Shown: in pieces, positions 12,906 to 54,764 of the stretch | Layout of the letters: every line of letters starts with the position of its first letter | How positions within the stretch are numbered: position 1 is the first letter of the stretch | Assembly: GCA_030646255.1 (NCBI GenBank) | Contig: JAUSNF010000056.1 | Coordinates: forward strand, 1 to 54,764 | DNA: 54,764 bases | DNA from: Candidatus Burarchaeum sp. | Lineage (GTDB): Archaea; Micrarchaeota; Micrarchaeia; Burarchaeales; Burarchaeaceae | Reading direction: 5' to 3' | Translations under genes and position numbers: made by a program | The notes under the pieces: generated by a model | Databases searched by the model: none | What the model was told of the DNA's origin: nothing | Seen by the model: only the letters and a program-made list of their open reading frames with translations

Positions 12906-12917
12906 TTTTTCCACGAC

Positions 12918-38578: not shown

Positions 38579-38589
38579 TCGAGAACCAC

Positions 38590-40504: not shown

Positions 40505-40762
40505 CTAACGACGGAACTTTTCCTCCTCAGCCTTCTTTTTCTTCAGCTTCTCAACTTCTCGTGCAGCAGGCATAATGAATCTGTACACGAACACGTAACT
40601 TATGGCGGCCGCCATGAAAACAAAGACATAGGGCGACGTGCGTTTCATAATCGCATTAGCGTAGAAGAAGAGGATAATTATAGGGATGGCTTCAAGTGCT
40701 AAGAAAATGTACATTTTTCTTTGCGCTGCCCAAATCTCATAATCAATGGTCATCTGTTTCAC
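40505..40762 (-). CDS. small two-TM protein with Lys/Glu-rich tail
   Basis: Hydrophobic segments are YIFLALEAIPIIILFFYANAI and YVFVFMAAAISYVFVY, and the tail is KLKKKKAEEEKFRR. GTG 40762 lies 27 nt from the shared TATA centre; ATG 40753 is an alternative start. Confidence 0.5.
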   Translation of the reverse strand: MKQMTIDYEIWAAQRKMYIFLALEAIPIIILFFYANAIMKRTSPYVFVFMAAAISYVFVYRFIMPAAREVEKLKKKKAEEEKFRR

Positions 40763-40784
40763 TCATGCCTATTTCAAAGGCGAC

Positions 40785-40793
40785 TATTTTTAA
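40785..40793. promoter_or_regulatory. single TATA box (TATTTTTAA) shared by divergent genes
   Basis: The centre at 40789 is 27 nt from GTG 40762 (minus) and 27 nt from the Pelota ATG 40816 (plus). Confidence 0.5.
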
Positions 40794-40815
40794 CCTGCTC
40801 GTTCAAACTGAGTGC

Positions 40816-41862: not shown

Positions 41863-41871
41863 GTTGGTTGC

Positions 41872-42339
41872 ATGACTCTGCCTCCAAAATTGATTTCTCC
41901 TTTCGTGATGTGGGCACTCGTATTCATAGGTTTCATGCTTTCCTTCTTACTCGTGCCGGATGCAGCCCTTTTCCAAACCAACCTCTTCACCTCCGCATTT
42001 TTCTTCCTTGCAGGCGCCAACTGGCTTTACTTTTTCGCCTTCGCACTTGCGGAAAACCGCTATGCGGCAAGGAGCGCGGCTTCTGTCAAGAGCCTCGTGA
42101 CTACTGGCGTATATTCCAAGGTGCGGCATCCCATCTATTCAGCAGACATCTTCTTCGCATGGGGCATTTTCCTATTTTCGCCAACCATCAGGATTTTTGC
42201 ATGTGCGGCATGGCTGACCGTCGTGCTGTTGCTCTGGATGCGGCTTGAGGAAAATGCGCTGCTGAAAAGATTCAGTGCCCAGTACGCACGCTACCGCGCG
42301 AAAACGCCGATGCTGGTTCCGGATTATTTTAGGAAATAG
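41872..42339 (+). CDS. isoprenylcysteine carboxyl methyltransferase (ICMT/PEMT) family membrane methyltransferase
   Basis: LVTTGVYSKVRHPIYSADIFFAWGIFL ... LEENALLKRFSAQYARYRAKTPMLVP is the family signature. Confidence 0.8.
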   Translation: MTLPPKLISPFVMWALVFIGFMLSFLLVPDAALFQTNLFTSAFFFLAGANWLYFFAFALAENRYAARSAASVKSLVTTGVYSKVRHPIYSADIFFAWGIFLFSPTIRIFACAAWLTVVLLLWMRLEENALLKRFSAQYARYRAKTPMLVPDYFRK

Positions 42340-42345
42340 TGGCCG

Positions 42346-42882
42346 CTAGCCTATTCCGCGCCGCATGTAGGCAACTTTTGTCAAATCATACGCCAGCGTG
42401 TATGTAGTGAATGCGATGAACGGCGCCCAGGCGCCCGTCAGCACGCCATAGATTGCGGTAGGAATCGGATAATAGAGCATCGCCTCGCTGAGCACGTACT
42501 TCCAGCCGCGCAGGCCCAGCACGTCATCCGCATAATCCTTGATCGCTCCGAAGACCGTGAACACGAGGAAGAAGGGCAGGAAAATGGAGTAGTCGAATGC
42601 CGCGAAGAGGAAGAATGAAATGACTATCATGAGTGCGGCAAGTATGTGGTTCGGGTAGTCGAGCCTGCGCCTTAACACAAAGCCCGCAACCATGGCCAGC
42701 ATCGTATTCGCAATCGCATCGTTGTAGAGTACGAGCATTGAGCCGAACATGCCCCAGGCAACGCCCGCGAGCCAGTCCGCGCCCCTAAACCATTTCAGCC
42801 CGTGCTCGTCGAGCAAATCCGCTACCTTCATGGAATAGCCGAAGAGCGCAGAAATAGAAATCAGGTACAGCAGATCATACAT
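42346..42882 (-). CDS. hypothetical polytopic membrane protein
   Basis: Start trimmed to ATG 42882, because the longer track ORF would read through the tRNA gene. There are 5-6 hydrophobic segments. No family recognised. Confidence 0.6.
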   Translation of the reverse strand: MYDLLYLISISALFGYSMKVADLLDEHGLKWFRGADWLAGVAWGMFGSMLVLYNDAIANTMLAMVAGFVLRRRLDYPNHILAALMIVISFFLFAAFDYSIFLPFFLVFTVFGAIKDYADDVLGLRGWKYVLSEAMLYYPIPTAIYGVLTGAWAPFIAFTTYTLAYDLTKVAYMRRGIG

Positions 42883-42938
42883 GAGTGCGGTTCTCTTTCC
42901 GCTCGGGCGGAAAGGGACCCCTTTCCGTGAAACGGAAA

Positions 42939-43065
42939 TGCGGCTGCCGGGATTTGAACCCGGGTTTCGAGATTTTCGCATAGCGGTTCTTTTCCGCGGG
43001 CGCTTTTCTTTTTAAGAAAAGGGCCCTTGGCAACCTCGAGTCCTACCAGACTAGACTACGGCCGC
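42939..43065 (-). tRNA. tRNA-Gly(GCC) with a 54-nt intron at the canonical 37/38 position
   Basis: Hand-folded as GCGGCCG TA GTCT-AGTCTGGTA-GGAC T CGAGG-TTGCCA[intron 43027-42974]A-TCTCG AAAC CCGGG-TTCAAAT-CCCGG CAGCCGC A. It has all four arms, the T-loop TTCAAAT and a 73-nt mature length. There is one C6:A67 acceptor mismatch and no encoded CCA. Confidence 0.85.
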
Positions 43066-43175: not shown

Positions 43176-43595
43176 TTATTTCCGCGCGGCGGCCTCGACC
43201 TTCTTCCGATACTCTTCCTCCTGCGCCCTGCTCTCGTACTTCTTCCTGTCCCAGCCCAGCCGCATGGTGTCATGCGAGAAGCGGGGTATGAGGTGCACGT
43301 GCGCGTGGAACACGAGCTGGCCCGCAGCCTTGCCTATATTGTGCAAGAGGTTGATGCCCTCGCAGCCAGTAGCCTTCTTCACTGCCCTGCCCAGCTTCAC
43401 ACTGGCCTTTGCAAGCGCAACGCCCTCGGCCTCGGGCATCTCGAGCACAGTCTCATAGTGCTTTTTCGGTATGACCAGCGTGTGCCCATGGTTCACGGGG
43501 TTGATGTCCAGGAACGCGAAAATGTTCTCGTCCTCATAAACTTTCGAGCACGGAATCTCACCCTTCACCAGCTTGCAGAAAATACAGTCGTCCAT
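43176..43595 (-). CDS. HIT-family (histidine triad) nucleotide hydrolase/transferase
   Basis: MDDCIFCKLVKGEIPCSKVYEDE.. and the triad HAHVHLIPR are present. Confidence 0.92.
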   Translation of the reverse strand: MDDCIFCKLVKGEIPCSKVYEDENIFAFLDINPVNHGHTLVIPKKHYETVLEMPEAEGVALAKASVKLGRAVKKATGCEGINLLHNIGKAAGQLVFHAHVHLIPRFSHDTMRLGWDRKKYESRAQEEEYRKKVEAAARK

Positions 43596-43610: not shown

Positions 43611-44390
43611 TCAGCGCCTCCCGAGAATTTTCAGCAGAAGCTCTTTAATAAGTTCAAGCATGCCCTCGCTGCCAACAGGCCTCATGCGCCTCTCGAGCCC
43701 CAGGCTCACCGTTAGCTCATTGAATGCTTTGCTTACATCTGACTTCGGCGCATGCACTACGACAGGCACATGGCAGCCGATGCTCTCGGGCACAATCCTG
43801 TCCTCCCTTATGGTCGCAAGTATCCTCTGCTCGCACGTGTCCTCTATCTCCTTGTAGTGCATCTCATACGTCTTTCCCTGCACGCGGTTGAGCACTATGC
43901 CGTTGACTTTCACACCGCGGTCAGCGGCCATGTCGCACATCTTCACCGCGCTCATCGTGCTCGCCATGTCGGGCGTCACAACTATTATTATGTCAGTGCA
44001 CGCGGAAACAATTTCCTTCACCTCGCGCGACATGCCCGGCGGGGTGTCGATGACGAAATTCTCATACTTTGTCTTGTGCAGGATTTCCTTCAGCCTGTCC
44101 AGCTTCACCTCGCTTTCATAGCCTAAGGTGGATGGCATCACGCGCACGCCGGTCATCGGGTGCACAATTAGCGTTTCCTCAAACCCGCATTTCCCGGCAA
44201 GCACCTTCTGCAGCCCGTCAGCATGGCCGAGCATCCCGAGGTGGAGGCCTGTACTGGGGTTTCCCGTGTCGCCGTCAATAAGCACGACGGGCATTCCCTC
44301 TTTTGCGGCCAGCGCGGCTAGGTTAACGGCTATCGTTGTCTTGCCAACCCCGCCCTTGCCCGAGACAACCTCAAGAATGCGCTTTGCCAT
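43611..44390 (-). CDS. MinD/ParA-family P-loop ATPase, copy 1
   Basis: The deviant Walker A is SGKGGVGKTT and Walker B is FVIDTPPG. The C-terminus GMLELIKELLLKILGRR looks amphipathic, like a membrane-targeting helix. Confidence 0.88.
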   Translation of the reverse strand: MAKRILEVVSGKGGVGKTTIAVNLAALAAKEGMPVVLIDGDTGNPSTGLHLGMLGHADGLQKVLAGKCGFEETLIVHPMTGVRVMPSTLGYESEVKLDRLKEILHKTKYENFVIDTPPGMSREVKEIVSACTDIIIVVTPDMASTMSAVKMCDMAADRGVKVNGIVLNRVQGKTYEMHYKEIEDTCEQRILATIREDRIVPESIGCHVPVVVHAPKSDVSKAFNELTVSLGLERRMRPVGSEGMLELIKELLLKILGRR

Positions 44391-44429
44391 GAGCTGATGA
44401 TTGAAAGCAGAAACTATTAATATGCGGCC

Positions 44430-45215
44430 TCAGCCGCCGCCGAAGCGCCTTGAGAGCCAGGCGAAGAAGCGAGACATGGGATTCCTGCCAACAGCAGCAC
44501 CTCCAAGGATTCCCCGGCCGCCAAAGCCAAGCTCAACAGCGAGGTCATTGAAGTTCCTGCTCACGGCAGAGCGGGGCGCATAAAGCACTGCAGGCATGCG
44601 CGCCGAGATGCTTTCAGGAACTGCCTTGTCTTCCAGTATGGTTGTGAGTATGCGCGCATTGCACGTGCTTTCTATCTCCTTCGAGTGCATCTCATACTTC
44701 TTATTCTGCACCCTGTTCAGCACAAGGCCCGCCACCTTTACCTTCGACTGCTCGGCCAGCTCGATTATCTTCACCGCGCTCATGACACTGGGTATGTCCG
44801 GCGTGACCACTACAATAGTTTCAGTGCACGCGGCTAGTATGTCCTCAACACTTGAGGAAACTCCTGGCGGCGAGTCTATCACCACGTTCTCATGAGGCGC
44901 GCCTTCCAGCACTTCCTTGAACCTCGATGTCTTCACGCCCCGCTGGTACTCAAGCGAGGAAGGCACGACGCGGATGCCTGTTGCAGGATGCATGATGATG
45001 GCCTGCTCGAGCTTGCACTTCCCGTTCAGCACGTTCTGGAGCCCGTTCATGTAGCCCCAAAGCCCGAGCTGAAGCCCCACAGTTGGATTGCCCAAATCTC
45101 CGTCGACAAGCACAATCTCACTATGCGCAGCAGCAAGCGCGCTGAGGTTCACTGCAATAGTTGTCTTGCCAACGCCTCCTTTCCCTGAAAGGACGCTGAT
45201 AATTCGCTTTGCCAT
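44430..45215 (-). CDS. MinD/ParA-family P-loop ATPase, copy 2
   Basis: Tandem paralogue with SGKGGVGKTT and VVIDSPPG. The C-terminal PMSRFFAWLSRRFGGG is also amphipathic and basic. Confidence 0.88.
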   Translation of the reverse strand: MAKRIISVLSGKGGVGKTTIAVNLSALAAAHSEIVLVDGDLGNPTVGLQLGLWGYMNGLQNVLNGKCKLEQAIIMHPATGIRVVPSSLEYQRGVKTSRFKEVLEGAPHENVVIDSPPGVSSSVEDILAACTETIVVVTPDIPSVMSAVKIIELAEQSKVKVAGLVLNRVQNKKYEMHSKEIESTCNARILTTILEDKAVPESISARMPAVLYAPRSAVSRNFNDLAVELGFGGRGILGGAAVGRNPMSRFFAWLSRRFGGG

Positions 45216-45280
45216 GCAATTCTTTTCTCGATGGGCTACTCTCAGCTATCCTATAAATATCTTTGCACTCTGCAGCGGGC

Positions 45281-47011
45281 TCAGTCAATCTCAGTCTTCA
45301 CGAGCTTCCTCAGCGACTTGGCATATTCCAGCCTCTCCTCGCTGAATTGCGCCCCTCCCCGGCCTTCGCCCCTTCTTCTCAGGAACAGGTAGCCAAATAT
45401 GAGCATGATTGCCATAACGCCCGCAAGCGCAACATCGCCCGGTCTAACTGATATTGCGAGCTGGGAGGCTGCAGGCGGGGCAGCTGCTTCAGATGTCATG
45501 ACTATCGGCAGCCGCGCGCTCACCTGCCCGTCATCCGTGAAAAGCACGAATCTCACCAGCTGCGACTCAACGGCATCTTCGGGCGGAGTGACGTCAAAGC
45601 GCGCCGTAAATGTATTGCGCGGCAGCAGGACAACGCTCAGGTAGCTCGGGTCGACGATGAAGCCTGCCGGCGCCTCGAGCGTGAGCGTGACAGGCAGCGG
45701 CTCCTCGCCCATATATAATACAGTTGCAACAACCTGCCCTGCCTCTCCCCTCTTCATTGCGCTGGCGCTCAGGTCCATAATCTGCACAACATTGGAAAGG
45801 TCCACTTTCTTGGTGACCACCAGTTCGGAGTTGTAGTCATTCACATACGGCGAGTATTCTGTGAGAACGCCGGAAAGCGCGTAGGAGACGCCCACCTGCT
45901 CGTGCGAGAGCAGTTCGGGGAACTCCCAGCTAAGGTATTTTTTGCCCTCAAGCGTCAGCACTTCCCCGGGCTTGTCGAGGAATTCCACCCTATCCTTGTC
46001 CATCTCTGTCGGCAGGGTGTCGAACAGCAGCGTGCGCTTCATGTCCTTTGCGCTTGGGTTTCGCACTGAAATGCTCACAAACGTCTTCTTGCCTATGCGG
46101 TCCACCTCTATTGTCCTGAGGAGGATTGGCTGGGTGCGCGCAGGGCTCACGCCCTTTACGCGCAGTATCATGAAGTCCGTGCTGACATCCTGCGCGCTTG
46201 CACCCGTTGCATCAAGCTTCACAAGGTAGTCTCCCTCCATTGCATTCTCAGGCACGCTTATGGCAAGGTCTATCTTCCTTTTCTCACCCGGCATCATCGT
46301 TATCTCGCCCGGCGTGCTGACCCGGAGCCAGTCTGCATCAACCCCTGCGGCCGAGAGCTTCACAACCTGCGCCTCTGCCCGCCGGTTCTCAAACTCAACA
46401 TTCTGGACCGCGGACTGGCCCGCAATCATTTCCTTGAGTACCGGGACTTTTGTGAAGTCAACAGGCCCGCCCATCTTGGGCACCAGCGGAGGCAGGGGCA
46501 CGAACTGTATCGGTTTTAGTTTCTGCTCAGTGTCGGGCTGCAGCCCTCCGCCTCCTCCTCCCGTTCCTCCCCCGCCCACAATGGCAAAGCTGAGCGAAAG
46601 CTCGTTGCTTACGGCCGTCGAGCCGTCGCCAGGGTCATAGGTTACATTGGCCCTTGCAGTGTATGCGCCCACCGGCAACATTCCAGTGGACCATGCCTTC
46701 TGCTGCGTTATCTGCTGGTTGGGCACTATTGAAATGGCACTGTAGTTCACAGTATCAACGAGCACGCTCGCCGCATTGAAGATGTAGACGCGCGCAGTCG
46801 CAGTAGTCGAGGCGGTGCCCGTATTCTCAAACGTGACTGAAAAATCCGTGCTGGAGCCTGCAGTAACCTGGTCCGAGGGCATGGTGAAGCTGTTCAGGAC
46901 TATGGTTGAGTAAAGCTCGCTGTTTATGAAATATGCGCGCGAGCCTGCAAAGTCCGAGTTAGCAATAGGGGCGAGGAGCAGAAGTGCAAGGAACGCCCAA
47001 CCACATTTCAC
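45281..47011 (-). CDS. large secreted surface protein with CARDB/NEW3-like beta-sandwich repeats and C-terminal TM anchor
   Basis: The signal peptide is MKCGWAFLALLLLAPIANS|DFAGSRAYF. There is a poly-Gly linker GGGGTGGGGGG. Repeats of the type ..GDYLVKLDATGASAQDVSTDFMILRVKG resemble the COG1470 family. The C-terminus has the TM segment VALAGVMAIMLIFGYLFL followed by RRRGEG. Confidence 0.7.
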   Translation of the reverse strand: MKCGWAFLALLLLAPIANSDFAGSRAYFINSELYSTIVLNSFTMPSDQVTAGSSTDFSVTFENTGTASTTATARVYIFNAASVLVDTVNYSAISIVPNQQITQQKAWSTGMLPVGAYTARANVTYDPGDGSTAVSNELSLSFAIVGGGGTGGGGGGLQPDTEQKLKPIQFVPLPPLVPKMGGPVDFTKVPVLKEMIAGQSAVQNVEFENRRAEAQVVKLSAAGVDADWLRVSTPGEITMMPGEKRKIDLAISVPENAMEGDYLVKLDATGASAQDVSTDFMILRVKGVSPARTQPILLRTIEVDRIGKKTFVSISVRNPSAKDMKRTLLFDTLPTEMDKDRVEFLDKPGEVLTLEGKKYLSWEFPELLSHEQVGVSYALSGVLTEYSPYVNDYNSELVVTKKVDLSNVVQIMDLSASAMKRGEAGQVVATVLYMGEEPLPVTLTLEAPAGFIVDPSYLSVVLLPRNTFTARFDVTPPEDAVESQLVRFVLFTDDGQVSARLPIVMTSEAAAPPAASQLAISVRPGDVALAGVMAIMLIFGYLFLRRRGEGRGGAQFSEERLEYAKSLRKLVKTEID

Positions 47012-47033
47012 TCATATCGTCCCCATCCAAGCA

Positions 47034-47924
47034 TCATGCCGCACCCTTTTCCTTCACTACGACCGTTATCTGGAAGTAGGGCCTGTCGAGTCCGGACGAG
47101 AACGCGCTGGTGACGTACTTGGTCCTGTAAATTTTGAACCACTCCTTCTCCATATCTGATGGAGGCGGGCCCGGATTCACGCCTATCACGTAGTTGCCGG
47201 GCTTTGCGTCAGGCTTGACCTGGACGTGCACAAGCTGCTTCTGCGCCCAGTCCTCGCCGAATATCGGGAAGGACGGGCCTATCAGCATGCCCTTCGGCTC
47301 AAAGCTGACCTCGAACTGTTTCGCCGCTTCTACCGGGTCCTGCACAACCTTGAAGCCGACCTGCTCGTAGGATACGGAAGAGCTGGCAGGGTATAGCAGC
47401 TCAGCGCCGACGCCCTGGTAAGTCTGCACGAGCCAGCTGGAATATATGTAAGTGGTTGCAGTGAAGGAAGTTCCCTGGTCCGTCTCCACCATCATGTCAC
47501 TCGGGTACACGCCTATGCCCCAAGCGCCCCACCTGTCCCTGGGCGGGTTCTGCATCATGTTCAAGCCAGCGCCTTCGAAGCTTGGGTACCACTCCGGCTG
47601 TTTCCAGTACTCCTCGCCAATGTCCTGCAGGTCCAGCTTTCCGTACTGCACGAGAACACGCATTTCATAAAAGTCCTTTGGGAAGGCTGGAAGGTTCTGG
47701 TAGACTACTTCGGGCAGGTAATCAGGCCTCTTGCTTATCGCCTCGGCCCTCTGCTTCTGTGCCTCTATCAAAAGCTCTATCGGCGTCTTGTCCTTTGCCT
47801 GCTCGGCGGCAGGTGCCGGCGTGGCATTCTGCTGCCCTCCAACCGGGGGCGCAACCTCCTGCTGCGCGCACCCGAAAAGCAGGAGCGCTACCGCGAAAAC
47901 TGCCATGATTGCGAAAAGCCTCAT
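47034..47924 (-). CDS. lipoprotein-like extracytoplasmic protein, family member A
   Basis: ATG 47924 follows GGAGGGGATGGG. The signal and lipobox are MRLFAIMAVFAVALLLFGC|AQQ. It is paralogous to 48764-49684. Confidence 0.65.
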   Translation of the reverse strand: MRLFAIMAVFAVALLLFGCAQQEVAPPVGGQQNATPAPAAEQAKDKTPIELLIEAQKQRAEAISKRPDYLPEVVYQNLPAFPKDFYEMRVLVQYGKLDLQDIGEEYWKQPEWYPSFEGAGLNMMQNPPRDRWGAWGIGVYPSDMMVETDQGTSFTATTYIYSSWLVQTYQGVGAELLYPASSSVSYEQVGFKVVQDPVEAAKQFEVSFEPKGMLIGPSFPIFGEDWAQKQLVHVQVKPDAKPGNYVIGVNPGPPPSDMEKEWFKIYRTKYVTSAFSSGLDRPYFQITVVVKEKGAA

Positions 47925-47971
47925 CCCATCCCCTCCTATATCTTGAAAGAAAAAAAACCAAAAGAATCCCA

Positions 47972-48664
47972 TCAGGTCGTCGGCTGGCTTATGTGCGTCA
48001 GGTTGCGCGTAACTGCGCCGGTTCCGACAGTGCCGGCCGCTGCCGGGAAGTTGTCAAAGAACGCCCACACCCACAGGCTCCTGGACTGCTGGGGCTGAAG
48101 GTCGGCTATGAACGGGCTTGCAGTGTTCGTAATGTTCTTGCACCTGTAGTTTGCTTCCCCTGCGACCGCTTCATGGTCGGGCGCCTTTGTGAGCCCTACA
48201 ATACCTCCCGCCAGGCCGCAGCCCAAGCCGCCTGTTGCAAGCAGGCCGCCCAAGGTTCCTCCGTTCGTGCCGTTGGACGCGGTCACGTTCACGCCCGGAG
48301 GCATGGTCGTGCCGTTGAAGGACAGCGAGATGTTCAGGGGCACAGTGCCGGTGTTCGTGTAATTGAATATCGGGACCGCATCAGTCTGCACGTTCGTAGG
48401 GCCGACGCTGGCGTTTATCCATGCATAGCTCACGTTGGAGGTGTTGAACTCAATTTCCGAAGTAAAGACTGCGTTTCCCTGAGGCAGCGAAAGGTTCGTC
48501 GAACTCGTCGCATTGGTCAGCTGCCCCGGCAGGGTGACGGTAAACGAAATTGCGTGCCTCAAAATGAAGAACACGCGCGTGCTCGCGAAGTCCGCATATA
48601 CAATCGCGGAAAGCAGGAGCAGCATCCCGACAAAAATCACAAAACCAAGAGTTCCAATCTTCAT
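47972..48664 (-). CDS. secreted, sequon-dense Gly/Thr/Asn-rich protein
   Basis: The signal peptide ends ..LLLLSAIVYA|DFASTRVFF. There are 12 NxS/T sequons in 230 aa by my count. The post-signal motif is shared with 45281-47011. Confidence 0.6.
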   Translation of the reverse strand: MKIGTLGFVIFVGMLLLLSAIVYADFASTRVFFILRHAISFTVTLPGQLTNATSSTNLSLPQGNAVFTSEIEFNTSNVSYAWINASVGPTNVQTDAVPIFNYTNTGTVPLNISLSFNGTTMPPGVNVTASNGTNGGTLGGLLATGGLGCGLAGGIVGLTKAPDHEAVAGEANYRCKNITNTASPFIADLQPQQSRSLWVWAFFDNFPAAAGTVGTGAVTRNLTHISQPTT

Positions 48665-48763
48665 ATTTCCACCCCGTTAAGTCGCCAGTATTTTACGGCA
48701 CGCTAATCTGCTTTTGCCATGTTTATAAGCTTTTCCAATTTTTTCGGCGTTGGCCTGGTGCTT

Positions 48764-49684
48764 TCACTCCAGCACGCGCACATGAATCGCATAATATGGC
48801 CTGTCCAGCCCGCTCATGAAGCTGGGCGAAACGTAGGCGAGGCCCTCGGCAGCCCATTTTTCCGCAGCCTCTTCTGAAGGCGGCACAACGTCAAAGTATA
48901 TCTGGTACTTGCCCGGTTTTACATTGCCGCTGACTTTCACATCCACGACAACCTTCTGCGCCCAGTTCTCCTCAAAGACCGGCCACGCAACCCCGAGGAT
49001 GAACTCGCGCGGCCCAATTGAAATGTTGAAGTAGCTGGCCGCCTCTTCCGCACTCACATTCGTGCCTTCTTCCACAACGACATGCGGCTCAAGCGCAACT
49101 GCCTGCCTGTTCATCACAAGCCAGCTCGTTGTGAAGAAGTTGGCTGAAACGAACGCGCCCCCTGCACTGGCATCAACAAAATGCTCTACAGGATAGCCGC
49201 GCATGCCTGATGCGCCCCACCTGTTCTGAGGCGGCTCCTGCATCAGGCCCACGCCGCTGAGCCAGAAGCCCGGGTAGAATTCGGGCTGTTTCCAGTATTC
49301 CTCCCCGAGGGCAGCAAGCTCGCTCCCGTTCAGGTAGTTGAGCGTAACAAAAACCGCGGCCTTGTGCAAGTCCTTCGGGAACTCCGGAAGCTGCGCGAAT
49401 AGCGAGGCTGAAAGGTCGTGGCCGCGGGAGCCATTCATCTTCTCGGGCCCGAGCATGAGCCCAAGCCGTTCGCACGACACGTTGTGCCCGCTGCGCGAGT
49501 AAAAGCACGGAGGTTCCACGGTCTTGTTGAGTTCAGGAGGCTTGACGGGCGGGCTCTGCCCTGCAGAATCCTGCATTGAAACATATGCGAGCGCGAGCAC
49601 CAGCAGGATGGCTGCGGCTGCAAGTACGAGCTGTTGGCTATTTTGTTTCTGTACGTTCTTGCGCATGTCAATCTCTTCGTTCAA
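48764..49684 (-). CDS. N-terminally anchored extracytoplasmic protein, family member B
   Basis: The TM anchor is LVLAAAAILLVLALAYVSM. It shares EEYWKQPE(W/F)YP, NRWGA, (S/T)SWLV, (D/N)WAQK and SGLDRPY(F/Y) with 47034-47924. Confidence 0.65.
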   Translation of the reverse strand: MNEEIDMRKNVQKQNSQQLVLAAAAILLVLALAYVSMQDSAGQSPPVKPPELNKTVEPPCFYSRSGHNVSCERLGLMLGPEKMNGSRGHDLSASLFAQLPEFPKDLHKAAVFVTLNYLNGSELAALGEEYWKQPEFYPGFWLSGVGLMQEPPQNRWGASGMRGYPVEHFVDASAGGAFVSANFFTTSWLVMNRQAVALEPHVVVEEGTNVSAEEAASYFNISIGPREFILGVAWPVFEENWAQKVVVDVKVSGNVKPGKYQIYFDVVPPSEEAAEKWAAEGLAYVSPSFMSGLDRPYYAIHVRVLE

Positions 49685-49695
49685 TAAACTTTACA

Positions 49696-50130
49696 TCAAC
49701 TTTTCGTTTCCTCCTCAAAGCGCTTCTTAAGCTCGGGCAGGAAACTCACCGCGAAGCCCAGCGCCTCCTTGCATGTTTCGGGCGATATATGCGCAGCGCC
49801 GTACATGCACTTGTTCCTGAGGATCCTGAGCCTGTCGAAAGTGGAAATCAGGTGCTGCGGGAAACCGCAGAATTCCCTGAGGAAAGAAATCTGCGCTTCG
49901 TGCGAATACGGCTTGTATCCTTTCAGTTCCATGAGTGCCTGGGACGCTTCCCTCAGTACCTCATAGGTGCCCTCGAATATGAAGGGCGCAGTATCCTTCC
50001 CTATTTTTTGCGCCCTGACATATCCGAGCCGCGCGTAAGCCCTGCTCATCAACGCAGCCGCGCTCTCCTTATTCGGTGCAGTTTTCTTCACCATTCCCTT
50101 GTCTAAGTAAAACTGGAAGTTTTCTATCAT
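49696..50130 (-). CDS. HEPN-domain protein
   Basis: The roughly 140-aa helical protein has ..FDRLRILRNKCMYGAAH.., an Arg/His region typical of HEPN partners of minimal nucleotidyltransferases. It overlaps the upstream gene by 4 nt. Confidence 0.7.
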   Translation of the reverse strand: MIENFQFYLDKGMVKKTAPNKESAAALMSRAYARLGYVRAQKIGKDTAPFIFEGTYEVLREASQALMELKGYKPYSHEAQISFLREFCGFPQHLISTFDRLRILRNKCMYGAAHISPETCKEALGFAVSFLPELKKRFEEETKS

Positions 50131-50654
50131 TCAATCAACTTCAGATAACCACATAGGGCAATGCCATTCGCGAGATTGTTGAGGAATTCTTTGCTGCATT
50201 CCTTTATCTTAATTTCATAGATGTTCAACTTCCTGCCAAGCCGCGCTTCGAACTTTTTCAAGCCCAGAGCCTTGCTTTTGCCGGTGACAATGGCGATATC
50301 AATATCACTTTTTGAGGTGTCCTCGCCGCAAGCAAAGCTTCCGTACAGAATGATTGCTGCAGGCTCCTCATATTCATCCCTCAAAAAGTCCACAAGCCCC
50401 GAGTCGTGGATTGCCAGCTGGTTGTAGCACGTTTTCAGATGCCGGAACCGCCCGCTTCTAGCTGCAGATACATTTTCAACGAGCCCGCCTCTCTCCGAAA
50501 CCAGCAGGCCCTCTTTTTTCAGGCGCGCCACGATTTTAGAAACGCCGGGGGCGGATAAGTGCGTGAGGCGCGCCATCTGCCTCAGATGAAACTTCTTCTC
50601 AGGGGCGTCGAAAAACAGCTTCATCACTTTGTAATTGTTATCCTTTGTTATCAT
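50127..50654 (-). CDS. winged-HTH + minimal nucleotidyltransferase (MNT) protein
   Basis: An N-terminal wHTH (LRQMARLTHLSAPGVSKIVARLKKEGLL) is followed by ILYGSFACGEDTSKSDIDIAIV, the GSxxxGxxxxxSDxD NTase motif. A leaderless TATA (CTTTAAATAA) lies about 22 nt upstream. Confidence 0.8.
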   Translation of the reverse strand: MITKDNNYKVMKLFFDAPEKKFHLRQMARLTHLSAPGVSKIVARLKKEGLLVSERGGLVENVSAARSGRFRHLKTCYNQLAIHDSGLVDFLRDEYEEPAAIILYGSFACGEDTSKSDIDIAIVTGKSKALGLKKFEARLGRKLNIYEIKIKECSKEFLNNLANGIALCGYLKLIE

Positions 50655-50801: not shown

Positions 50802-52289
50802 ATGTTTTCCAAAGGCCAGGCGCGCTTTCCGCTGCTGCTAACCATCTTCCTTCTCGCAGGCCTTGCCATCTCGCAGACCGAGCCTCTTCCGCCCTCCCTC
50901 ATGTGGAATTCGCAGAGTACTGCTGCAAGTTTCGACGGCTCGGCCTACAATTCCGCGAACACGCTTGCAGTGGGCAGCGTGCCCGCAGGCACAATCAGCG
51001 TGCTGATAGCCGGCTGCCCTTCGGACTGGGTGTGCATTGCAGACCCCGCAACCTTTGAGCACGCGGGTTCGGATGCAAGCTATCCTATCAGTTTGCTCAT
51101 AATTGCGCCGCAGGGTTCAACCGGCACAATATCCGCAACCGCATCCAGAGGCTCAGGTGCAACTTCGGGCGAATGGACTGTAAGCTTAACAGCCCAGCAG
51201 CCTGCTGAACAGCCGCCAGAGCAGCCGCCCGCACAGGAAGCCCCTCCTTCGCCAGCGGAGTTCACAGAAGTTTACGGCTGTGGCGAACTGCGCGGCAATT
51301 CAGTGCTTGTGCAGGATATACTTGCAGGGGATTTCGAGGAAGGCAGGCCCTTCTGCTTCATGCTTGCGCCAGACCTTCCTGAAAAATCAGTGCTGGACTG
51401 CCAGGGTCATAGCATAATAGGAAACGGTGAAGGCAGCGGAATCTTCTATTCTGACCATGCCGACAATGGATGGGAAATAAGGAACTGCGTTGTAATGAAT
51501 TTTGAGCTCGGCCTTTTCACGGACTCGGACGACCTGACTGTGCGCAATGTTGAGGTGCGCAACACCGACATTGCATGGCAGCTAGGAGGCGGCTCGCCGA
51601 TAGCAGCCATAGATTCGAGCTTCTCGGACTCGCGCCTCGGAATAGTGTTCTATTACACCCTTCCGACAGTGTTCACGAACGTAAAGGTCAACCGCATAAC
51701 AGAATACCCGTTCGTCTTCGAAGGCATACGGGGCGCAGAGATTGATGAGAACAAGGTTGCAAACCTCACAACGTCCGGCCCCTCGCTGGTAATCAAAAGC
51801 ACAGACTTTGAGATAGTCAACTCGAGGCTGGGTGGATTGGAGTTCGAGGATGGCGACGTAACATCCAACAACATCGTTCTCACAGAAACCAAGCTAACGC
51901 GCGTCGGAGGGGGCGATGCGGAGGAGTGCGATCCCATATCTGGATGCGTGCACAGCCAAGGCTACTGGGAGGCCCACCCTGAGGAATGGCCCGAGGTTGA
52001 GGGCGGGGCGGGCTGGTTCAACGTCACTACGATGACGACGCCTCCTGCAGGAAATGCGTGGTACATGCTGGCGCACCAGTACATGGCGGCAGTGCTGAAC
52101 AGGGAATCCGGCGCCGCCGTTCCGCCAGCCATAGCAGGGGCACTCGAGGATTCCGAGGATCTGTTGGGAGATGAAATTTACGAGATCGGTCCCGACCACC
52201 CTGACAGGGCACTGGCAATAAGCCTTGCGGACACGCTTGAGGCATATAATGCAGGGGGCGGCAATGGACGCGGTCAGGGGCAAAGATAA
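50802..52289 (+). CDS. secreted right-handed parallel beta-helix (NosD/PbH1-like) protein
   Basis: The signal peptide is RFPLLLTIFLLAGLAISQ and there is a Pro/Glu/Gln linker. ..LDCQGHSIIGNGEGSGIFYS..WEIRNCVVMNFELGLF.. is followed by repeated beta-helix rungs. Confidence 0.75.
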   Translation: MFSKGQARFPLLLTIFLLAGLAISQTEPLPPSLMWNSQSTAASFDGSAYNSANTLAVGSVPAGTISVLIAGCPSDWVCIADPATFEHAGSDASYPISLLIIAPQGSTGTISATASRGSGATSGEWTVSLTAQQPAEQPPEQPPAQEAPPSPAEFTEVYGCGELRGNSVLVQDILAGDFEEGRPFCFMLAPDLPEKSVLDCQGHSIIGNGEGSGIFYSDHADNGWEIRNCVVMNFELGLFTDSDDLTVRNVEVRNTDIAWQLGGGSPIAAIDSSFSDSRLGIVFYYTLPTVFTNVKVNRITEYPFVFEGIRGAEIDENKVANLTTSGPSLVIKSTDFEIVNSRLGGLEFEDGDVTSNNIVLTETKLTRVGGGDAEECDPISGCVHSQGYWEAHPEEWPEVEGGAGWFNVTTMTTPPAGNAWYMLAHQYMAAVLNRESGAAVPPAIAGALEDSEDLLGDEIYEIGPDHPDRALAISLADTLEAYNAGGGNGRGQGQR

Positions 52290-52443
52290 CGGCGATGACA
52301 AGGGGAAGGCGCACAGGCGGATGAAAACAACGGCGGATGAACTGCAGTCCGAAAATCGGTGGATGAGATGCGATTGCCTGTAGCAGCTGCCCCTTCCGCT
52401 TCTTCATCATTCGGATTTTATAGTGTATTGGTTGGGTTGTAGC

Positions 52444-54764
52444 ATGCGGGCATTGTTGGCAAGTTTGTTGTTTTTGGTTTTGGCCGCCGGCTTCGCAGCC
52501 GCCGCGCCCCTACAGATACTGGCTAATGACTCCATCGCAGAGCAGACCACCACCAGTTCGACTCAAGTGCCCGCTGCCAATATTACTTTCACACCGCAGG
52601 GCGGAAACAACAACAGATGCTACCTCCTCATGGCAAGCGGGGAAGTGTCACAGAGCAATGCAAACAACGAAGTCCGAGTCAACTTTACAGTGGATTCGTT
52701 AACGATAGGCACGAGCAACTTTGAGCCGCAGTCCACGGCCAGTTATTACTCAGTCGCATTCCATAATGTCACTTGCTTTGCAGACCAGAACGCACATGAC
52801 GCCACTTTATATTTCTCCAGAGATGCGACTACTGCGGCGATAAGAAACGCGCGCGTCATTGCGTTGGGCATAAACAACAGCGCGGACTACATAGCCAACT
52901 TCACTATCCCAAAGACGCTCACCACAGGCAACGTCTACAGGCCCTACCTGAACCTCACATTCACCGTGCCCTCCTCAGGCACGCACAACTACCTGCTGCT
53001 GGGAAGCCTTGAGTTCGACCATGGCGCAACAGCTGTCGCCTCCTCAATAATCGTGCGGTTCCAGCTGGACAACGTTGTTATAGCCGAGTCGAACTTCTCC
53101 GGCCAGAGCGGCAATGCAGTCGGCGCCTTCACCTTCATGGCCCACAATGTTTCCACGCTCAGCGCCGGCTCGCACAAGCTGAACATCTCGGTAATGCAGG
53201 CGGGCGGCACGGCAGGGCTCATAAGGCGCGTGAGGCTTACGGTGGTGAACCTGACAGGCTACAGCTATGCTGCCAATGAAAGCGTTCCGGTAAAAAAAGA
53301 CACGGCTGCCAGCTATCTGCCTGTTACGAGCGTGAGCATGCCCTTCATATTCAACAAAGACTTCATAGCGCTCGCCTCCTCTGTGGCCAGCACCTCGGCT
53401 ACTAGTGCAAGGGTGCGCAACATCCTGTTCCCACCATATGATCTGGCACCTAGCTGGCGCACCACGGTTGATGTTGCGATTGCCAACGAGAACTTCTCCT
53501 TCTTCGCTCTTTGGAATGACACGTGGGACAGCGCGAGCGAGCCCGAGCACCTTATGAATCTTTCCCACGGCTCGGAGGACGGCTCTACTGAAATAAGAAC
53601 GGGGCACGCCAGCATAAGCGTGATATGGGTGCCCCTGAGCTGCGGTACGCTCACAGCGAGCACCACATTGGATATCGACCTCACCACAACAGGCACCTGC
53701 TTCACCATAGGCGCGGACAGCATAACGCTGGACTGCAACGGGCACACGATAACCGGCTCAGGAAGCACCGCCGGGAGCGGTTTCGGAGTGATGAACACGC
53801 AGTACGACAACGTGGTCATACGGAACTGCGTGATAACTAATTTTGAAAAGGGAATCTACTTCACGGGCGCCTCGGACAACGCAATATTCATAAACGACAC
53901 GATAAGCGCGGTGACCGAAGGGGTTTACGTAAACATAAGCAGCACCCCGCGCATGTGGAACCTCTCAATAACCTCCCCCTCGCGCGCAGGCATCCTCCTG
54001 AACCGCTCGAACTGGGGCGGCATATTCAACACAACCGTGGATTCAACATCGGTTCTCCCTCTAACGGAGCTGTATGACATCTACCTGTACATGTCCAACT
54101 TCTCATTCATCCACAACGTGACCGTCGCCACGAGCCAGTTCCTCGCGCAGAGCTACGGCATAGCGCTCGAGAGCTCAAATACGACCACCATCTCAAACTA
54201 TTCCTCGCCACAGTCAGAGACCGGGCTTTACATCTTCCTCTCGAACATGACGCGCGTGGAGAACTCGAGCCTCGACCAGTTCAGCGCCTACGGCATATTC
54301 CTGTCGAGCTCCAACAACTCGTTCATACGCAACGTAACGCTGAACAACGGCTCGATAGGCCCTGTCCTTTCCGGCACCGGCATCTACCTGTCCGGCAGCT
54401 GGTTCAACCTCTTCCAGAACCTCAGCGTATGGAACAACAGCGGCCCCGGGGCCACAATCTCGCTATCAAATAACAACTCGTTTGAGAACAGCTCGTTCAG
54501 GCGGAATGCGTGGTCCGTGGCCGGCGGCTCCGGGGTCTCCCTATCATCCTCCAGCAACAACACCTTCTGGAACATCACTGTAGAAGACCAATCCGGCGCA
54601 ACAGGCAACACCGGCATCGACCTAATCTCCAGTTCCAATGACAACAGGTTCCTGAACGTAACTTCGCGCAACAACTCTGCGGGCTTCAACTTTACAGCTT
54701 CTGACCGGAACCTCATAGTAAATTCAACGGCAGCCAACAACAGCTACGGAGTTTACTTCTCGAA
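52444..54764 (+). CDS. very large secreted, sequon-dense beta-helix surface protein (5' partial, continues beyond the window)
   Basis: This ORF is not in the supplied track. I read ATG 52444 in frame to the last base (773 codons) without a stop. The signal peptide is MRALLASLLFLVLAAGFAAAAP. ..ITLDCNGHTITGSGSTAGSGFGV..VVIRNCVITNFEKGIYF.. is followed by many about 22-aa rungs (NNS.I.N.T..NN..). A TATA (GATTTTATAG) lies about 24 nt upstream. Confidence 0.75.
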   Translation, partial: MRALLASLLFLVLAAGFAAAAPLQILANDSIAEQTTTSSTQVPAANITFTPQGGNNNRCYLLMASGEVSQSNANNEVRVNFTVDSLTIGTSNFEPQSTASYYSVAFHNVTCFADQNAHDATLYFSRDATTAAIRNARVIALGINNSADYIANFTIPKTLTTGNVYRPYLNLTFTVPSSGTHNYLLLGSLEFDHGATAVASSIIVRFQLDNVVIAESNFSGQSGNAVGAFTFMAHNVSTLSAGSHKLNISVMQAGGTAGLIRRVRLTVVNLTGYSYAANESVPVKKDTAASYLPVTSVSMPFIFNKDFIALASSVASTSATSARVRNILFPPYDLAPSWRTTVDVAIANENFSFFALWNDTWDSASEPEHLMNLSHGSEDGSTEIRTGHASISVIWVPLSCGTLTASTTLDIDLTTTGTCFTIGADSITLDCNGHTITGSGSTAGSGFGVMNTQYDNVVIRNCVITNFEKGIYFTGASDNAIFINDTISAVTEGVYVNISSTPRMWNLSITSPSRAGILLNRSNWGGIFNTTVDSTSVLPLTELYDIYLYMSNFSFIHNVTVATSQFLAQSYGIALESSNTTTISNYSSPQSETGLYIFLSNMTRVENSSLDQFSAYGIFLSSSNNSFIRNVTLNNGSIGPVLSGTGIYLSGSWFNLFQNLSVWNNSGPGATISLSNNNSFENSSFRRNAWSVAGGSGVSLSSSSNNTFWNITVEDQSGATGNTGIDLISSSNDNRFLNVTSRNNSAGFNFTASDRNLIVNSTAANNSYGVYFS

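What the first reader, a model, noticed from the sequence alone, without database searches (positions are those of the whole stretch)
43611..49684. Duplicated two-gene envelope module followed by two tandem MinD-like ATPases in one co-directional array
The minus-strand order is anchored protein B (48764-49684), secreted sequon-rich protein (47972-48664), lipoprotein A (47034-47924), large NEW3/CARDB-like anchored protein (45281-47011), MinD-2, MinD-1, then HIT.
- A and B are clear paralogues. They share EEYWKQPE(W/F)YP, NRWGA, SWLV, (D/N)WAQK and SGLDRPY(F/Y).
- Their two downstream partners differ in size, but both begin right after the signal peptide with the same motif DFA(S/G)(T/S)R(V/A)(F/Y)FI.
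- The unit [A/B-family protein + DFAxxRxxFI protein] is therefore present twice and is followed by two MinD paralogues.
- Both MinD paralogues carry amphipathic C-terminal tails.

Intergenic gaps are 15-100 bp. I do not recognise the A/B family or the shared N-terminal motif. A cytoplasmic positioning ATPase pair genetically coupled to a duplicated surface assembly could be an undescribed envelope or cell-cell contact system. That would be interesting if the organism is an episymbiont.
Basis: partly seen in the sequence, partly recalled or inferred. Interest (0 to 1): 0.66.

Follow-up and report, generated by a model that had tools for sequence, protein, structure and literature searches.

The report
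Micrarchaeota surface-protein cassette coupled to MinD
A small groundwater DPANN archaeon carries a conserved, lineage-specific gene cassette that links three uncharacterised cell-surface proteins to a MinD-type positioning ATPase, which most likely places or anchors surface glycoproteins and adhesin-like giants on the cell.

Summary
The genes, coordinates, A/B paralogy (38% identity), MinD pair (59%) and shared N-terminal motif are all real.

The "duplicated two-gene module" reading is not the best one. Across about 31 related loci, nearly all Micrarchaeota, the conserved unit is S (small sequon-rich protein) → A (membrane-tethered) → L (large NEW3 protein with a C-terminal TM) → MinD. It is complete in 22 loci. 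B, the second MinD and HIT occur only in the Burarchaeales-like clade.

S and L share only a 12-residue mature N-terminal peptide, and it co-varies within genomes (p≈2e-5) without gene conversion. The S domain also forms the extreme C-terminus of many large surface proteins, including neighbouring β-helix giants. Extra A copies sit beside extra S-domain proteins. L carries a conserved basic cytoplasmic tail that is present when MinD is adjacent. Every linked MinD keeps a C-terminal amphipathic helix.

S and A match no Pfam, NCBIfam or PDB family.

Best reading (0.45): a surface anchoring or assembly system that MinD patterns through L's tail. Function and operon structure are untested, and no RNA data exist. 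This is a new variant of MinD/ParA-coupled envelope machinery.

The parts
48764..49684 (-). B: A-family paralogue with an N-terminal TM anchor instead of a lipobox. It is a clade-specific extra copy.
   Evidence: 38% identity to A, E=4e-50. Aligns over the whole family. A B-like copy upstream of S occurs only in Burarchaeales-like loci L001, L002, L023 and L025. 6 sequons against 1.3 expected.
47972..48664 (-). S: small secreted sequon-rich protein made of a Sec signal peptide, a conserved N-terminal peptide and the S domain (beta-sandwich).
   Evidence: No Pfam or NCBIfam hit. Family alignment. AF2 model pLDDT 70 with no significant PDB fold match and no PDB sequence match. 390 representative clusters in the exhaustive search.
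48557..48592 (-). Mature N-terminal peptide of S (DFASTRVFFILR), alternating-hydrophobic and beta-strand-like.
   Evidence: T29, V31 and F33 are invariant or near-invariant. It is the only segment shared with L. It co-varies with the L peptide within genomes. AF2 leaves it unstructured at low confidence.
47925..47971 (-). S-A intergenic region with an oligo-T run (TTTTGGTTTTTTTTCTTT) and an SD-like GGAGGGG. Possibly a partial archaeal terminator after the S gene.
   Evidence: Read directly from the sequence. Function is inferred only.
47034..47924 (-). A: lipobox (LLFGC) lipoprotein with a helical N-domain and an Ig-like beta-sandwich.
   Evidence: 34 clusters in 5.8e9 proteins, all Micrarchaeota where named. 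All members have either a lipobox Cys or an N-terminal TM. AF2 pLDDT 87.7, pTM 0.77. Foldseek gives only generic Ig-type hits (PapD-like/MSP, cohesin, GH123 N-domain; TMq<=0.30).
45281..47011 (-). L: signal peptide, S-type N-terminal peptide, CARDB/NEW3 Ig-like domains, TM helix, conserved cytoplasmic tail.
   Evidence: PF10633 E=2.8e-10. Sits directly downstream of A in nearly all loci, often overlapping it.
46919..46954 (-). Mature N-terminal peptide of L (DFAGSRAYFINS), matching the S peptide.
   Evidence: hhalign aligns only these 12 columns between the S and L families. Same-genome S/L similarity is 20.8, cross-genome 9.1 and L-L cross-genome 3.1. Synonymous codons differ.
45284..45436 (-). 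L's C-terminal TM helix (45380-45436) and 32-aa basic cytoplasmic tail (45284-45379; ...ERLEYAKSLRKLVKTEID).
   Evidence: Motif R-x-x-[YF]-[LIA]-x-x-[LIV]-[KR]-x-x-[LIVM]-K matched in 14 of 20 L proteins, with related variants in four more. It is absent where MinD is non-adjacent (L008, L026) or missing (L021 L-analogue).
44430..45215 (-). MinD-2: MinD-like deviant Walker A ATPase with a C-terminal amphipathic helix (MSRFFAWLSRRFGGG). Orthologue of the single MinD in most loci.
   Evidence: TIGR01969 minD_arch 164.6 bits, below the 201.75 cutoff. Motifs. Best phmmer match for most linked MinDs.
43611..44390 (-). MinD-1: clade-specific tandem paralogue (59% identity) with a distinct amphipathic tail (LIKELLLKILGRR).
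   Evidence: Closest PDB sequences are archaeal MinDs (1HYQ 4.8e-30, 1G3Q, 1ION). A second MinD occurs only in the window, L002 and L023.
43176..43595 (-). HIT-family hydrolase, 15 bp downstream of MinD-1. A neighbour only in the Burarchaeales-like clade and not part of the conserved cassette.
   Evidence: PF01230 E=1.4e-25. Adjacent only in the window, L002, L023 and L025.
50802..52289 (+). Divergently transcribed NosD/beta-helix surface protein (495 aa). A recurrent neighbour of the cassette.
   Evidence: PF13229/PF05048. Homologues adjacent in L001, L002, L004, L023 and L027.
52423..54764 (+). Large NosD/beta-helix protein cut by the window end. It is the positional equivalent of the Burarchaeum 1119-aa giant, whose last ~195 aa are an S-like domain.
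   Evidence: PF13229 2e-21, PF05048 7e-20. The L001 giant, residues 942-1115, is 54% identical to S residues 39-227, E=3e-51. That this protein also ends in an S domain is an inference, since its C-terminus lies outside the window.

Best explanation
The locus is a Micrarchaeota-specific cell-surface anchoring or assembly cassette whose conserved core is S -> A -> L -> MinD.

Proposed roles:
- S is an exported, heavily N-glycosylated beta-sandwich protein. The same S domain forms the C-terminal module of large adhesin-like surface proteins, including the beta-helix giants next to the cassette.
- A (and its paralogue B) is held at the outer face of the membrane by a lipid or TM anchor. It acts as the dedicated extracytoplasmic partner (holder or assembly factor) of S-domain proteins.
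- L is the single-pass membrane anchor. Its mature N-terminus copies the first beta-strand peptide of its own genome's S. The proposal is that this peptide docks into S domains by beta-strand complementation or exchange, tethering S-domain proteins (possibly short S polymers) to the membrane.
- L's short, conserved, basic cytoplasmic tail is the only cytoplasmic element of S, A and L. It is proposed to recruit the MinD-like ATPase, which binds the membrane through its C-terminal amphipathic helix. ATP-dependent MinD would then control where, or how many, L-anchored surface assemblies form.

Shown here: gene content, conservation of order, domain architectures, peptide co-variation, tail/MinD co-occurrence.
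Inferred: every physical interaction, the strand-docking mechanism, and the positioning role.
For: 1. Synteny. S-A-L-MinD is co-directional and complete in 22 of about 31 non-redundant loci spanning deep divergence, with A-L often overlapping and L-MinD gaps of mostly 19-211 bp.
2. Topology. S and L have Sec signal peptides. Every A-family member has a lipobox Cys or an N-terminal TM.
3. Shared peptide. S and L share only the 12-aa mature N-terminal peptide on non-homologous domains. Same-genome S/L peptide similarity is 20.8, against 9.1 cross-genome (p~2e-5 with 11 clade representatives). L peptides resemble their own S (20.8) far more than other L peptides (3.1). Synonymous codons differ, so this is not gene conversion.
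4. S domain as a C-terminal module. All 42 multi-domain hits (237-1672 aa) among the best 150 have it at the extreme C-terminus. The Burarchaeum giant is 54% identical to S there.
5. Gene pairing. Extra A-family genes sit next to extra S-domain genes in L008, L011, L026 and L029.
6. L tail. The tail motif is conserved when MinD is directly adjacent. It is absent where MinD is displaced (L008, L026) or missing (L021).
7. MinD features. All linked MinDs keep a deviant Walker A and a C-terminal amphipathic helix.
8. Precedent. Characterised archaeal MinDs position surface machinery and not the Z-ring (bioRxiv 10.1101/2020.04.03.021790; PMC11588486; PMC13228585).
Against: - No expression, localisation or interaction data exist; only DNA runs are available.
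- TATA-like boxes before MinD2 and MinD1 allow separate transcription.
- The S model is only moderate (pLDDT 70) and has no significant match to known donor-strand subunits; 7UEG gives E=0.43.
- About 40% of fused S-like domains (16 of 42), including the Burarchaeum giant, keep a weakly similar strand upstream. The peptide may therefore simply be strand 1 of the domain acting in cis.
- A's fold hits are generic Ig-type only.
- Peptide co-variation could instead reflect a shared processing enzyme.
- Multimer modelling was not available.
Confidence: 0.45

Rival explanations
1. A true donor-strand-complemented fibre, analogous to chaperone-usher pili but without an usher. S polymerises head-to-tail through its N-terminal strand. 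Giants with a C-terminal S domain act as tip adhesins. L donates its N-terminal strand to the last S and so forms the membrane-anchored base. A/B act as PapD-like chaperones. MinD sets fibre position or number. This is a more specific form of the best explanation.
For: - Gene order runs major subunit, Ig-fold partner, large membrane protein, with an oligo-T tract after S.
- The N-terminal peptide directly follows the signal-peptide cleavage site and has alternating hydrophobic residues.
- 26 of 42 fused S domains start after the peptide.
- Within-genome co-variation of the S and L peptides.
- A's best fold hits include PapD-like/MSP domains.
- AF2 does not pack the S peptide in cis.
- Archaeal donor-strand filaments exist: threads (PMC9715654), cannulae, bundling pili.
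Against: - No significant structural similarity to thread, AbpA, TasA or CU subunits.
- 16 of 42 fused domains retain a strand-like segment.
- PapD-like hits have TMq<=0.30 and are generic.
- No filament has been observed.
Confidence: 0.2
2. The cassette links envelope or S-layer growth to cell division. L is a membrane landmark for a division-type MinD, which regulates FtsZ. S, A and L are pseudo-periplasmic wall components inserted at the division site.
For: - The ATPases are closest to archaeal and bacterial MinD and have an MTS.
- Micrarchaeota possess S-layers (bioRxiv 10.1101/2021.04.28.441871).
- L and MinD co-occur.
Against: - Archaeal MinDs studied so far do not position the Z-ring, and a different (Dip) system does this in Haloferax (10.1101/2020.04.03.021790; PMC13228585).
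- No FtsZ, SepF or MinC/E-like gene lies in the cassette in any locus.
- None of S, A, L or the beta-helix neighbours scanned matches PF05123, the domain of the published Micrarchaeota S-layer protein.
Confidence: 0.15
3. S, A and L are surface glycan-binding or glycan-degrading accessory proteins (NEW3/CARDB modules, beta-helix lyase-like neighbours) for nutrient scavenging. MinD is a conserved but functionally unrelated neighbour.
For: - NEW3 domains occur in glycosidases.
- A's top fold hit is the N-terminal domain of a GH123 enzyme.
- NosD/beta-helix neighbours.
Against: - No catalytic domain was detected in S, A or L.
- The fold hits cover only non-catalytic beta-sandwiches.
- The L-MinD link and tail/MinD co-occurrence across deep divergence are hard to explain by chance.
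Confidence: 0.1
4. The MinD genes serve the nearby type IV pilus machinery in a TadZ-like role, and S-A-L are unrelated.
For: T2SSE ATPase (38590-40314) and T2SSF platform gene(s) (37547-38578, possibly 36596-37546) lie about 3 kb away on the same strand.
Against: - No T2SSE or T2SSF homologue occurs within +-10 kb of the cassette in any related locus.
- The pilus genes are separated from the array by a tRNA and two opposite-strand genes.
- S and L have Sec-type, not class III, signal peptides.
Confidence: 0.03

Closest known systems
ParA/MinD-family ATPases dedicated to envelope machines (archaeal MinD4/MinD2 of Haloferax; bacterial FlhG, TadZ/CpaE, BcsQ)
   Same: A small deviant Walker A ATPase with a C-terminal amphipathic membrane-targeting helix, genetically linked to a surface structure it is expected to place or count. 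The closest sequences and structures are archaeal MinDs.
   Different: - The cargo here is an uncharacterised Sec-exported module (S, A, L), not archaella, chemosensory arrays, T4P or cellulose synthase.
- The proposed link is the short cytoplasmic tail of a single-pass Ig-repeat protein.
- There is no receiver-like domain as in TadZ.
- Scores fall below the TIGR01969 cutoff.
- It occurs in DPANN, whereas archaeal MinDs were reported as restricted to Euryarchaeota (10.1101/2020.04.03.021790).
Donor-strand-complemented filaments (bacterial chaperone-usher pili; archaeal threads Saci_0406, bundling pili AbpA, cannulae; TasA)
   Same: - Sec-exported, glycosylated beta-sandwich subunit with a conserved strand at the mature N-terminus.
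- The same domain sits at the C-terminus of large adhesin-like proteins, as in FimH/PapG pilin domains.
- An Ig-fold partner gene lies next to the subunit gene.
- Subunit-first gene order.
   Different: - No significant sequence or fold similarity to any of these subunits.
- No usher.
- The base would be a TM protein.
- No known DSC system is coupled to a MinD ATPase.
- Strand exchange is not demonstrated here.
C-terminal sorting or anchoring domains of surface proteins (T9SS CTD, cohesin-dockerin, SLH)
   Same: A conserved beta-sandwich of about 160 aa at the very C-terminus of diverse large passenger proteins, plus dedicated membrane-proximal partner proteins encoded nearby.
   Different: - No homology to these modules.
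- The organism is an archaeon without an outer membrane.
- The domain also exists as an abundant stand-alone protein with its own N-terminal peptide.
Micrarchaeota S-layer protein SLP_Mh (Micr_00292; PF05123)
   Same: A heavily glycosylated surface protein of the same phylum with a NosD-like copper-binding region. The paper notes that a separate membrane stalk protein may be needed for anchoring (bioRxiv 10.1101/2021.04.28.441871).
   Different: S, A, L and the beta-helix neighbours show no PF05123 match. The sizes and architectures differ.

Membership tests
MinD (archaeal MinD subfamily, TIGR01969) | Deviant Walker A with signature lysine (KGGxGK[ST]) | tested here: met
   GKGGVGKT in both proteins and in 26 of the 27 linked MinDs; L008 has GKGGAGRT.
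MinD (archaeal MinD subfamily, TIGR01969) | Switch I/II aspartates (DxD...NP; D[ST]PPG) | tested here: met
   DGDTGNP/DTPPG and DGDLGNP/DSPPG.
MinD (archaeal MinD subfamily, TIGR01969) | Score above the curated family cutoff | tested here: not met
   164.6 and 158.8 bits against a cutoff of 201.75. It is still the best-scoring model.
MinD (archaeal MinD subfamily, TIGR01969) | C-terminal amphipathic membrane-targeting helix | tested here: inconclusive
   An amphipathic basic/hydrophobic C-terminus is present in almost all linked MinDs by sequence. Membrane binding was not tested.
MinD (archaeal MinD subfamily, TIGR01969) | ATP-dependent dimerisation and a partner that stimulates ATPase activity | not testable with these tools
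   No MinC/MinE-like gene lies in the locus. The L tail is proposed as the partner by inference only.
Donor-strand-complemented pili (chaperone-usher, threads, TasA/Abp) | Subunit with an N-terminal extension strand immediately after signal-peptide cleavage | tested here: inconclusive
   A conserved T-x-V-x-F strand sits at the mature N-terminus of S and L. AF2 leaves it unpacked. A similar strand is retained in 16 of 42 fused domains.
Donor-strand-complemented pili (chaperone-usher, threads, TasA/Abp) | Fold or sequence similarity to known DSC subunits | tested here: not met
   Foldseek PDB best E=0.086; AbpA 7UEG E=0.43, TM 0.33/0.40. The HMM against PDB sequences gave no hit.
Donor-strand-complemented pili (chaperone-usher, threads, TasA/Abp) | Inter-subunit strand exchange or an acceptor groove | not testable with these tools
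   No multimer prediction or model coordinates were available. Indirect support comes from peptide co-variation.
Donor-strand-complemented pili (chaperone-usher, threads, TasA/Abp) | PapD-type periplasmic chaperone | tested here: inconclusive
   A's beta-sandwich hits PapD-like/MSP domains (E~2e-6) but with TMq<=0.30, alongside cohesins and other Ig folds.
Type IV pilus / Tad system with TadZ-like ATPase | Conserved linkage to T2SSE ATPase and T2SSF platform; class III signal peptides on subunits | tested here: not met
   T2SSE/F genes are present about 3 kb away in this window but absent from all related loci. S and L have Sec-type AxA|D/E cleavage sites.
Archaeal S-layer protein (PF05123 / SLP_Mh type) | S_layer_N/C domains | tested here: not met
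   No PF05123 hit in S, A, B, L or the beta-helix neighbours.
   No Pfam or NCBIfam family. No PDB sequence hit. The fold is a helical domain plus an Ig-like sandwich, not an SBP.

The most novel reading that the evidence does not exclude
Micrarchaeota build a previously unseen kind of surface fibre or anchoring array. Sec-exported S-domain glycoproteins, including giant beta-helix adhesins, are chained and tethered to a transmembrane base (L) by exchange of a genome-matched N-terminal beta-strand. Lipid-anchored Ig-fold chaperones (A/B) assist. The placement or number of these structures, possibly host-contact structures, is set from the cytoplasm by a MinD ATPase that reads L's tail. This would be the first donor-strand-type system under ParA/MinD spatial control, and the first MinD cargo defined in DPANN archaea.
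Probability: 0.2. Interest if true: 0.8.

Novelty: new variant of a known kind. Interest (0 to 1): 0.6.

Why it matters
DPANN archaea depend on physical contact with hosts, yet the molecules that build and position their contact surfaces are almost unknown.

This cassette offers three things:
- A conserved, compact and therefore tractable candidate: two unannotated protein families (the S domain with about 390 representative clusters, and the A family with about 34 clusters at 90% identity) plus a membrane anchor.
- A concrete, testable cargo hypothesis for an archaeal MinD outside the Euryarchaeota.
- A possible new C-terminal display domain for giant archaeal surface proteins.

If the strand-docking idea holds, it would extend donor-strand-type assembly to a membrane-anchored, ATPase-patterned system.

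Tried and rejected
- Duplication of a two-gene [A/B + DFA-partner] unit: rejected. S and L share only 12 aa, and comparative order is S-A-L-MinD.
- Giants as strictly acceptor-only tip adhesins: weakened. The Burarchaeum giant and 16 of 42 fused domains keep a strand-like segment.
- Gene conversion as the cause of S/L peptide similarity: rejected by differing synonymous codons.
- S homologous to the A sandwich: no.
- S or A related to any solved structure by sequence: no.
- S fold match to thread, AbpA or TasA: not significant.
- A as a solute-binding protein or enzyme: no family hit, and no invariant Cys, His or Ser.
- TadZ-like link to the nearby type IV pilus genes: rejected.
- Identity with the published Micrarchaeota S-layer protein: no PF05123 match (paper).
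- Dip divisome oscillator: an unrelated GTPase system.
- RNA-seq for operon structure: only three DNA groundwater metagenome runs exist.
- The word-indexed homology search under-reported the S family (7 and 29 hits) compared with the exhaustive search (390).

Full report
OBSERVATION

All six minus-strand ORFs exist at the stated coordinates.
- B: 48764-49684
- S: 47972-48664
- A: 47034-47924. The longer ATG at 47972 is unlikely to be the start, because homologues begin at the MRLF... methionine.
- L: 45281-47011
- MinD-2: 44430-45215
- MinD-1: 43611-44390
- HIT: 43176-43595

What checks out:
- A and B are clear paralogues, with 38% identity and E=4e-50.
- The two ATPases are 59% identical.
- L carries a NEW3/NPCBM_assoc domain (PF10633, 2.8e-10) and a C-terminal TM helix.
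- S has 12 N-glycosylation sequons against 3.6 expected.
- The motif shared by S and L just after the signal peptide is weak pairwise (E=0.005). It is nevertheless conserved throughout both families.

ORGANISM AND DISTRIBUTION

The A/B family has only 34 clusters (at 90% identity) among 5.8 billion proteins. Every named member is from Micrarchaeota. The nearest is Ca. Burarchaeum australiense at 69% identity.

S is equally unannotated. Neither S nor A matches Pfam, NCBIfam or any PDB sequence.

The window matches groundwater metagenome DNA runs only. The Burarchaeum genome paper mentions no MinD or surface system, and further searches on Micrarchaeota S-layers, Micrarchaeota with MinD and pili, archaeal donor-strand pili and Haloferax MinDs found no description of this cassette.

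COMPARATIVE ANATOMY

A scan of GTDB species genomes with the A profile gave 29 loci, and four more came from contig look-ups. I searched their six-frame ORFs with the window proteins and then with family HMMs.

The conserved unit is S -> A -> L -> MinD, all co-directional.
- It is complete in 22 of about 31 non-redundant loci, including the most distant ones (L031-L033, with A identity of about 23-30%).
- It is truncated by contig ends in several others.
- A and L frequently overlap or are less than 25 bp apart.
- L-MinD gaps are mostly 19-211 bp.

B, the second MinD and HIT are present only in the Burarchaeales-like clade (window, L001, L002, L023, L025).

THE S DOMAIN

S residues 39-227 are 54% identical (E=3e-51) to the last ~175 residues of the 1119-aa NosD/beta-helix protein that sits divergently next to the cassette in Burarchaeum.

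The window has the same arrangement. A 495-aa beta-helix protein (50802-52289) is followed by a larger one (52423 onwards) that is cut by the window end.

An exhaustive HMMER search of 1.84 billion representatives with the S profile found 390 clusters, 247 of them at E<=1e-10. They show two architectures:
- Stand-alone proteins of ~180-210 aa that match the whole profile, including the signal peptide and N-terminal peptide.
- 42 multi-domain proteins (237-1672 aa) among the best 150, in which the domain always ends within a few residues of the C-terminus.

Passenger regions are mostly unannotated and sequon-rich, and one of the nine scanned has a weak beta-helix match.

Extra A-family genes lie beside extra S-domain genes in L008, L011, L026 and L029. 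The recurrent pair is therefore [S-domain protein -> A-family protein]. In this window, B plausibly partners the divergent giant.

THE SHARED PEPTIDE

Profile-profile comparison shows that S and the first 150 residues of L share only the 12-residue mature N-terminal peptide. The consensus is d~~~T~V~FnVp against df~~t~~~F~~~, and nothing aligns beyond it.

S and L peptides are paralogous segments, so independent evolution should make same-genome and cross-genome similarity equal. Observed values are:
- Same-genome mean BLOSUM 21.1 against cross-genome 11.0 for 17 genomes, p~5e-5.
- 20.8 against 9.1 for 11 clade representatives, p~2e-5.
- L peptides of different genomes score only 3.1 against each other.

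Synonymous codons differ between the two motifs. The match is therefore kept at the protein level and is not recent gene conversion. So L's N-terminus tracks its cognate S.

Caveats:
- A shared processing enzyme could also impose this pattern.
- 16 of 42 fused S domains, and the Burarchaeum giant (ATVVYLPSAAVDVSFTLTLPG), retain a weakly similar strand. The peptide may therefore be strand 1 of the domain.

STRUCTURES

A gives a confident model (pLDDT 87.7, pTM 0.77). It has a helical N-domain and a beta-sandwich with an inserted helix. Foldseek finds only generic Ig-type neighbours: the HYDIN PapD-like domain, MSP domains, cohesins and the GH123 N-terminal domain, with E~1e-6 and TMq<=0.30.

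S gives a moderate model (pLDDT 70). It is a beta-sandwich whose conserved N-terminal peptide is left unstructured. No PDB match is significant. The best is E=0.086, and the Pyrobaculum bundling pilin 7UEG has the highest TM-score (0.33/0.40) at E=0.43.

S and A are not homologous to each other.

THE CYTOPLASMIC LINK

L is the only one of S, A and L with a cytoplasmic segment. After the TM helix there is a 25-56-aa basic tail. A motif R-x-x-[YF]-[LIA]-x-x-[LIV]-[KR]-x-x-[LIVM]-K is matched in 14 of 20 L proteins, with related variants in four more.

The motif is missing in exactly these cases:
- L008 and L026, where MinD is displaced by more than 1 kb and is divergent.
- The variant lineage L021. 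Its L-analogue has the S-type N-terminal peptide and a TM helix, but a poly-Lys tail and no MinD within 10 kb.

All linked MinDs have a deviant Walker A box (canonical KGGxGK[ST] in all but L008), and almost all end in an amphipathic C-terminal helix.

The best family model is archaeal MinD (TIGR01969), at 165 and 159 bits against a cutoff of 201.75. The closest PDB sequences are archaeal MinDs 1HYQ, 1G3Q and 1ION.

Published work shows that Haloferax MinDs position archaella and chemosensory arrays, not the Z-ring. It also shows that a separate Dip GTPase system positions the divisome (10.1101/2020.04.03.021790; PMC11588486; PMC13228585).

TRANSCRIPTION HINTS (SEQUENCE ONLY)

- A BRE/TATA-like GAAAAGCTTATAAA lies about 60 nt upstream of S.
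- An oligo-T run (TTTTGGTTTTTTTTCTTT) follows the S stop. This fits a highly expressed first gene with partial termination.
- The A-L gap (22 bp) and the MinD1-HIT gap (15 bp) contain no promoter-like sequence.
- TATA-like boxes precede MinD2 (ATATTTATAGG) and MinD1 (CATATTAATAG), so internal promoters are possible.

No RNA data are available.

INTERPRETATION

The best-supported reading (confidence 0.45) is a lineage-specific surface anchoring or assembly cassette.
- S-domain glycoproteins, both free S and giant adhesin-like proteins, are handled by membrane-tethered A-family partners.
- They are tethered to the single-pass anchor L, probably through docking of L's S-matched N-terminal strand.
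- A MinD-like ATPase acts on the cytoplasmic face, engaging L's tail and the membrane to pattern the assembly.

A stricter donor-strand fibre version is attractive but unproven (0.2).

Alternatives:
- Division-coupled envelope growth (0.15).
- A glycan-scavenging surface complex with an unrelated MinD (0.1).
- A TadZ-like role for the nearby type IV pilus genes (0.03). These genes are T2SSE at 38590-40314 and T2SSF at 37547-38578. They are absent from every related locus.

COMPARISON AND NOVELTY

Functionally, the cassette resembles known pairings of ParA/MinD ATPases with envelope machines: MinD4, FlhG, TadZ and BcsQ. Its extracytoplasmic logic resembles donor-strand pili or C-terminal display domains.

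It fails membership tests for chaperone-usher, thread and TasA subunits, for Tad/T4P systems, for PF05123 S-layer proteins and for solute-binding proteins. The ATPases fall just below the curated archaeal MinD threshold.

I rate it a new variant of a known kind, built from two previously unannotated protein families. Interest is 0.6.

Noticed in passing
window 42939-43065 (-): Intron-containing tRNA-Gly(GCC) with a ~56-nt insertion in the anticodon-loop region (Rfam RF00005, 47.2 bits, E=4e-9). ARAGORN missed it and reported 0 tRNAs for the whole window. It marks the 3' end of the co-directional array.
   Followed up: yes
window 42346-42981 (-): The 211-aa multi-TM ORF overlaps the tRNA at its 5' end. 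Its real start is probably the ATG at 42882 (MYDLLYL...). It has no Pfam or NCBIfam family, and a 210-aa protein sits at the same position in L002.
   Followed up: partly
window 49696-50654 (-): An overlapping pair: an MNT-type nucleotidyltransferase with a wHTH (50127-50654; PF18765/PF01909) and a weak HEPN-like protein (49696-50130; E=0.024). It is probably a HEPN/MNT toxin-antitoxin module. It is inserted between B (11-bp gap) and the divergent beta-helix genes, and is absent from the Burarchaeum and L002 loci.
   Followed up: partly
window 36596-40314 (-): Type IV pilus/archaellum-type assembly genes: a T2SSE ATPase (574 aa), a T2SSF platform protein (343 aa), and a second 316-aa membrane protein without a Pfam hit. 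They are not linked to the cassette in any related locus.
   Followed up: yes
L002 10934-14410 (+): In this relative the L gene is split. A 636-aa secreted NEW3 protein has the N-terminal peptide but no TM. A separate 502-aa protein carries the TM and the conserved tail.
   Followed up: no
L015, L020, L021, L022: A variant lineage, labelled Woesearchaeota or Methanosarcinales in the records, has giant-S / A / S, or S / A, without MinD. In L021 there is an L-analogue (12014-13399) with a poly-Lys tail and an extra 182-aa lipoprotein between A and S.
   Followed up: partly
L009 1-2426; L010 349-1651: Some loci carry two or three tandem stand-alone S paralogues upstream of A, reminiscent of major and minor subunit sets.
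   Followed up: no
window 40696-42339 (+): A Pelota/aRF1-like gene and an isoprenylcysteine-carboxyl-methyltransferase-like membrane protein lie on the opposite strand, between the array and the pilus genes. Pelota is also a neighbour in L002.
   Followed up: no
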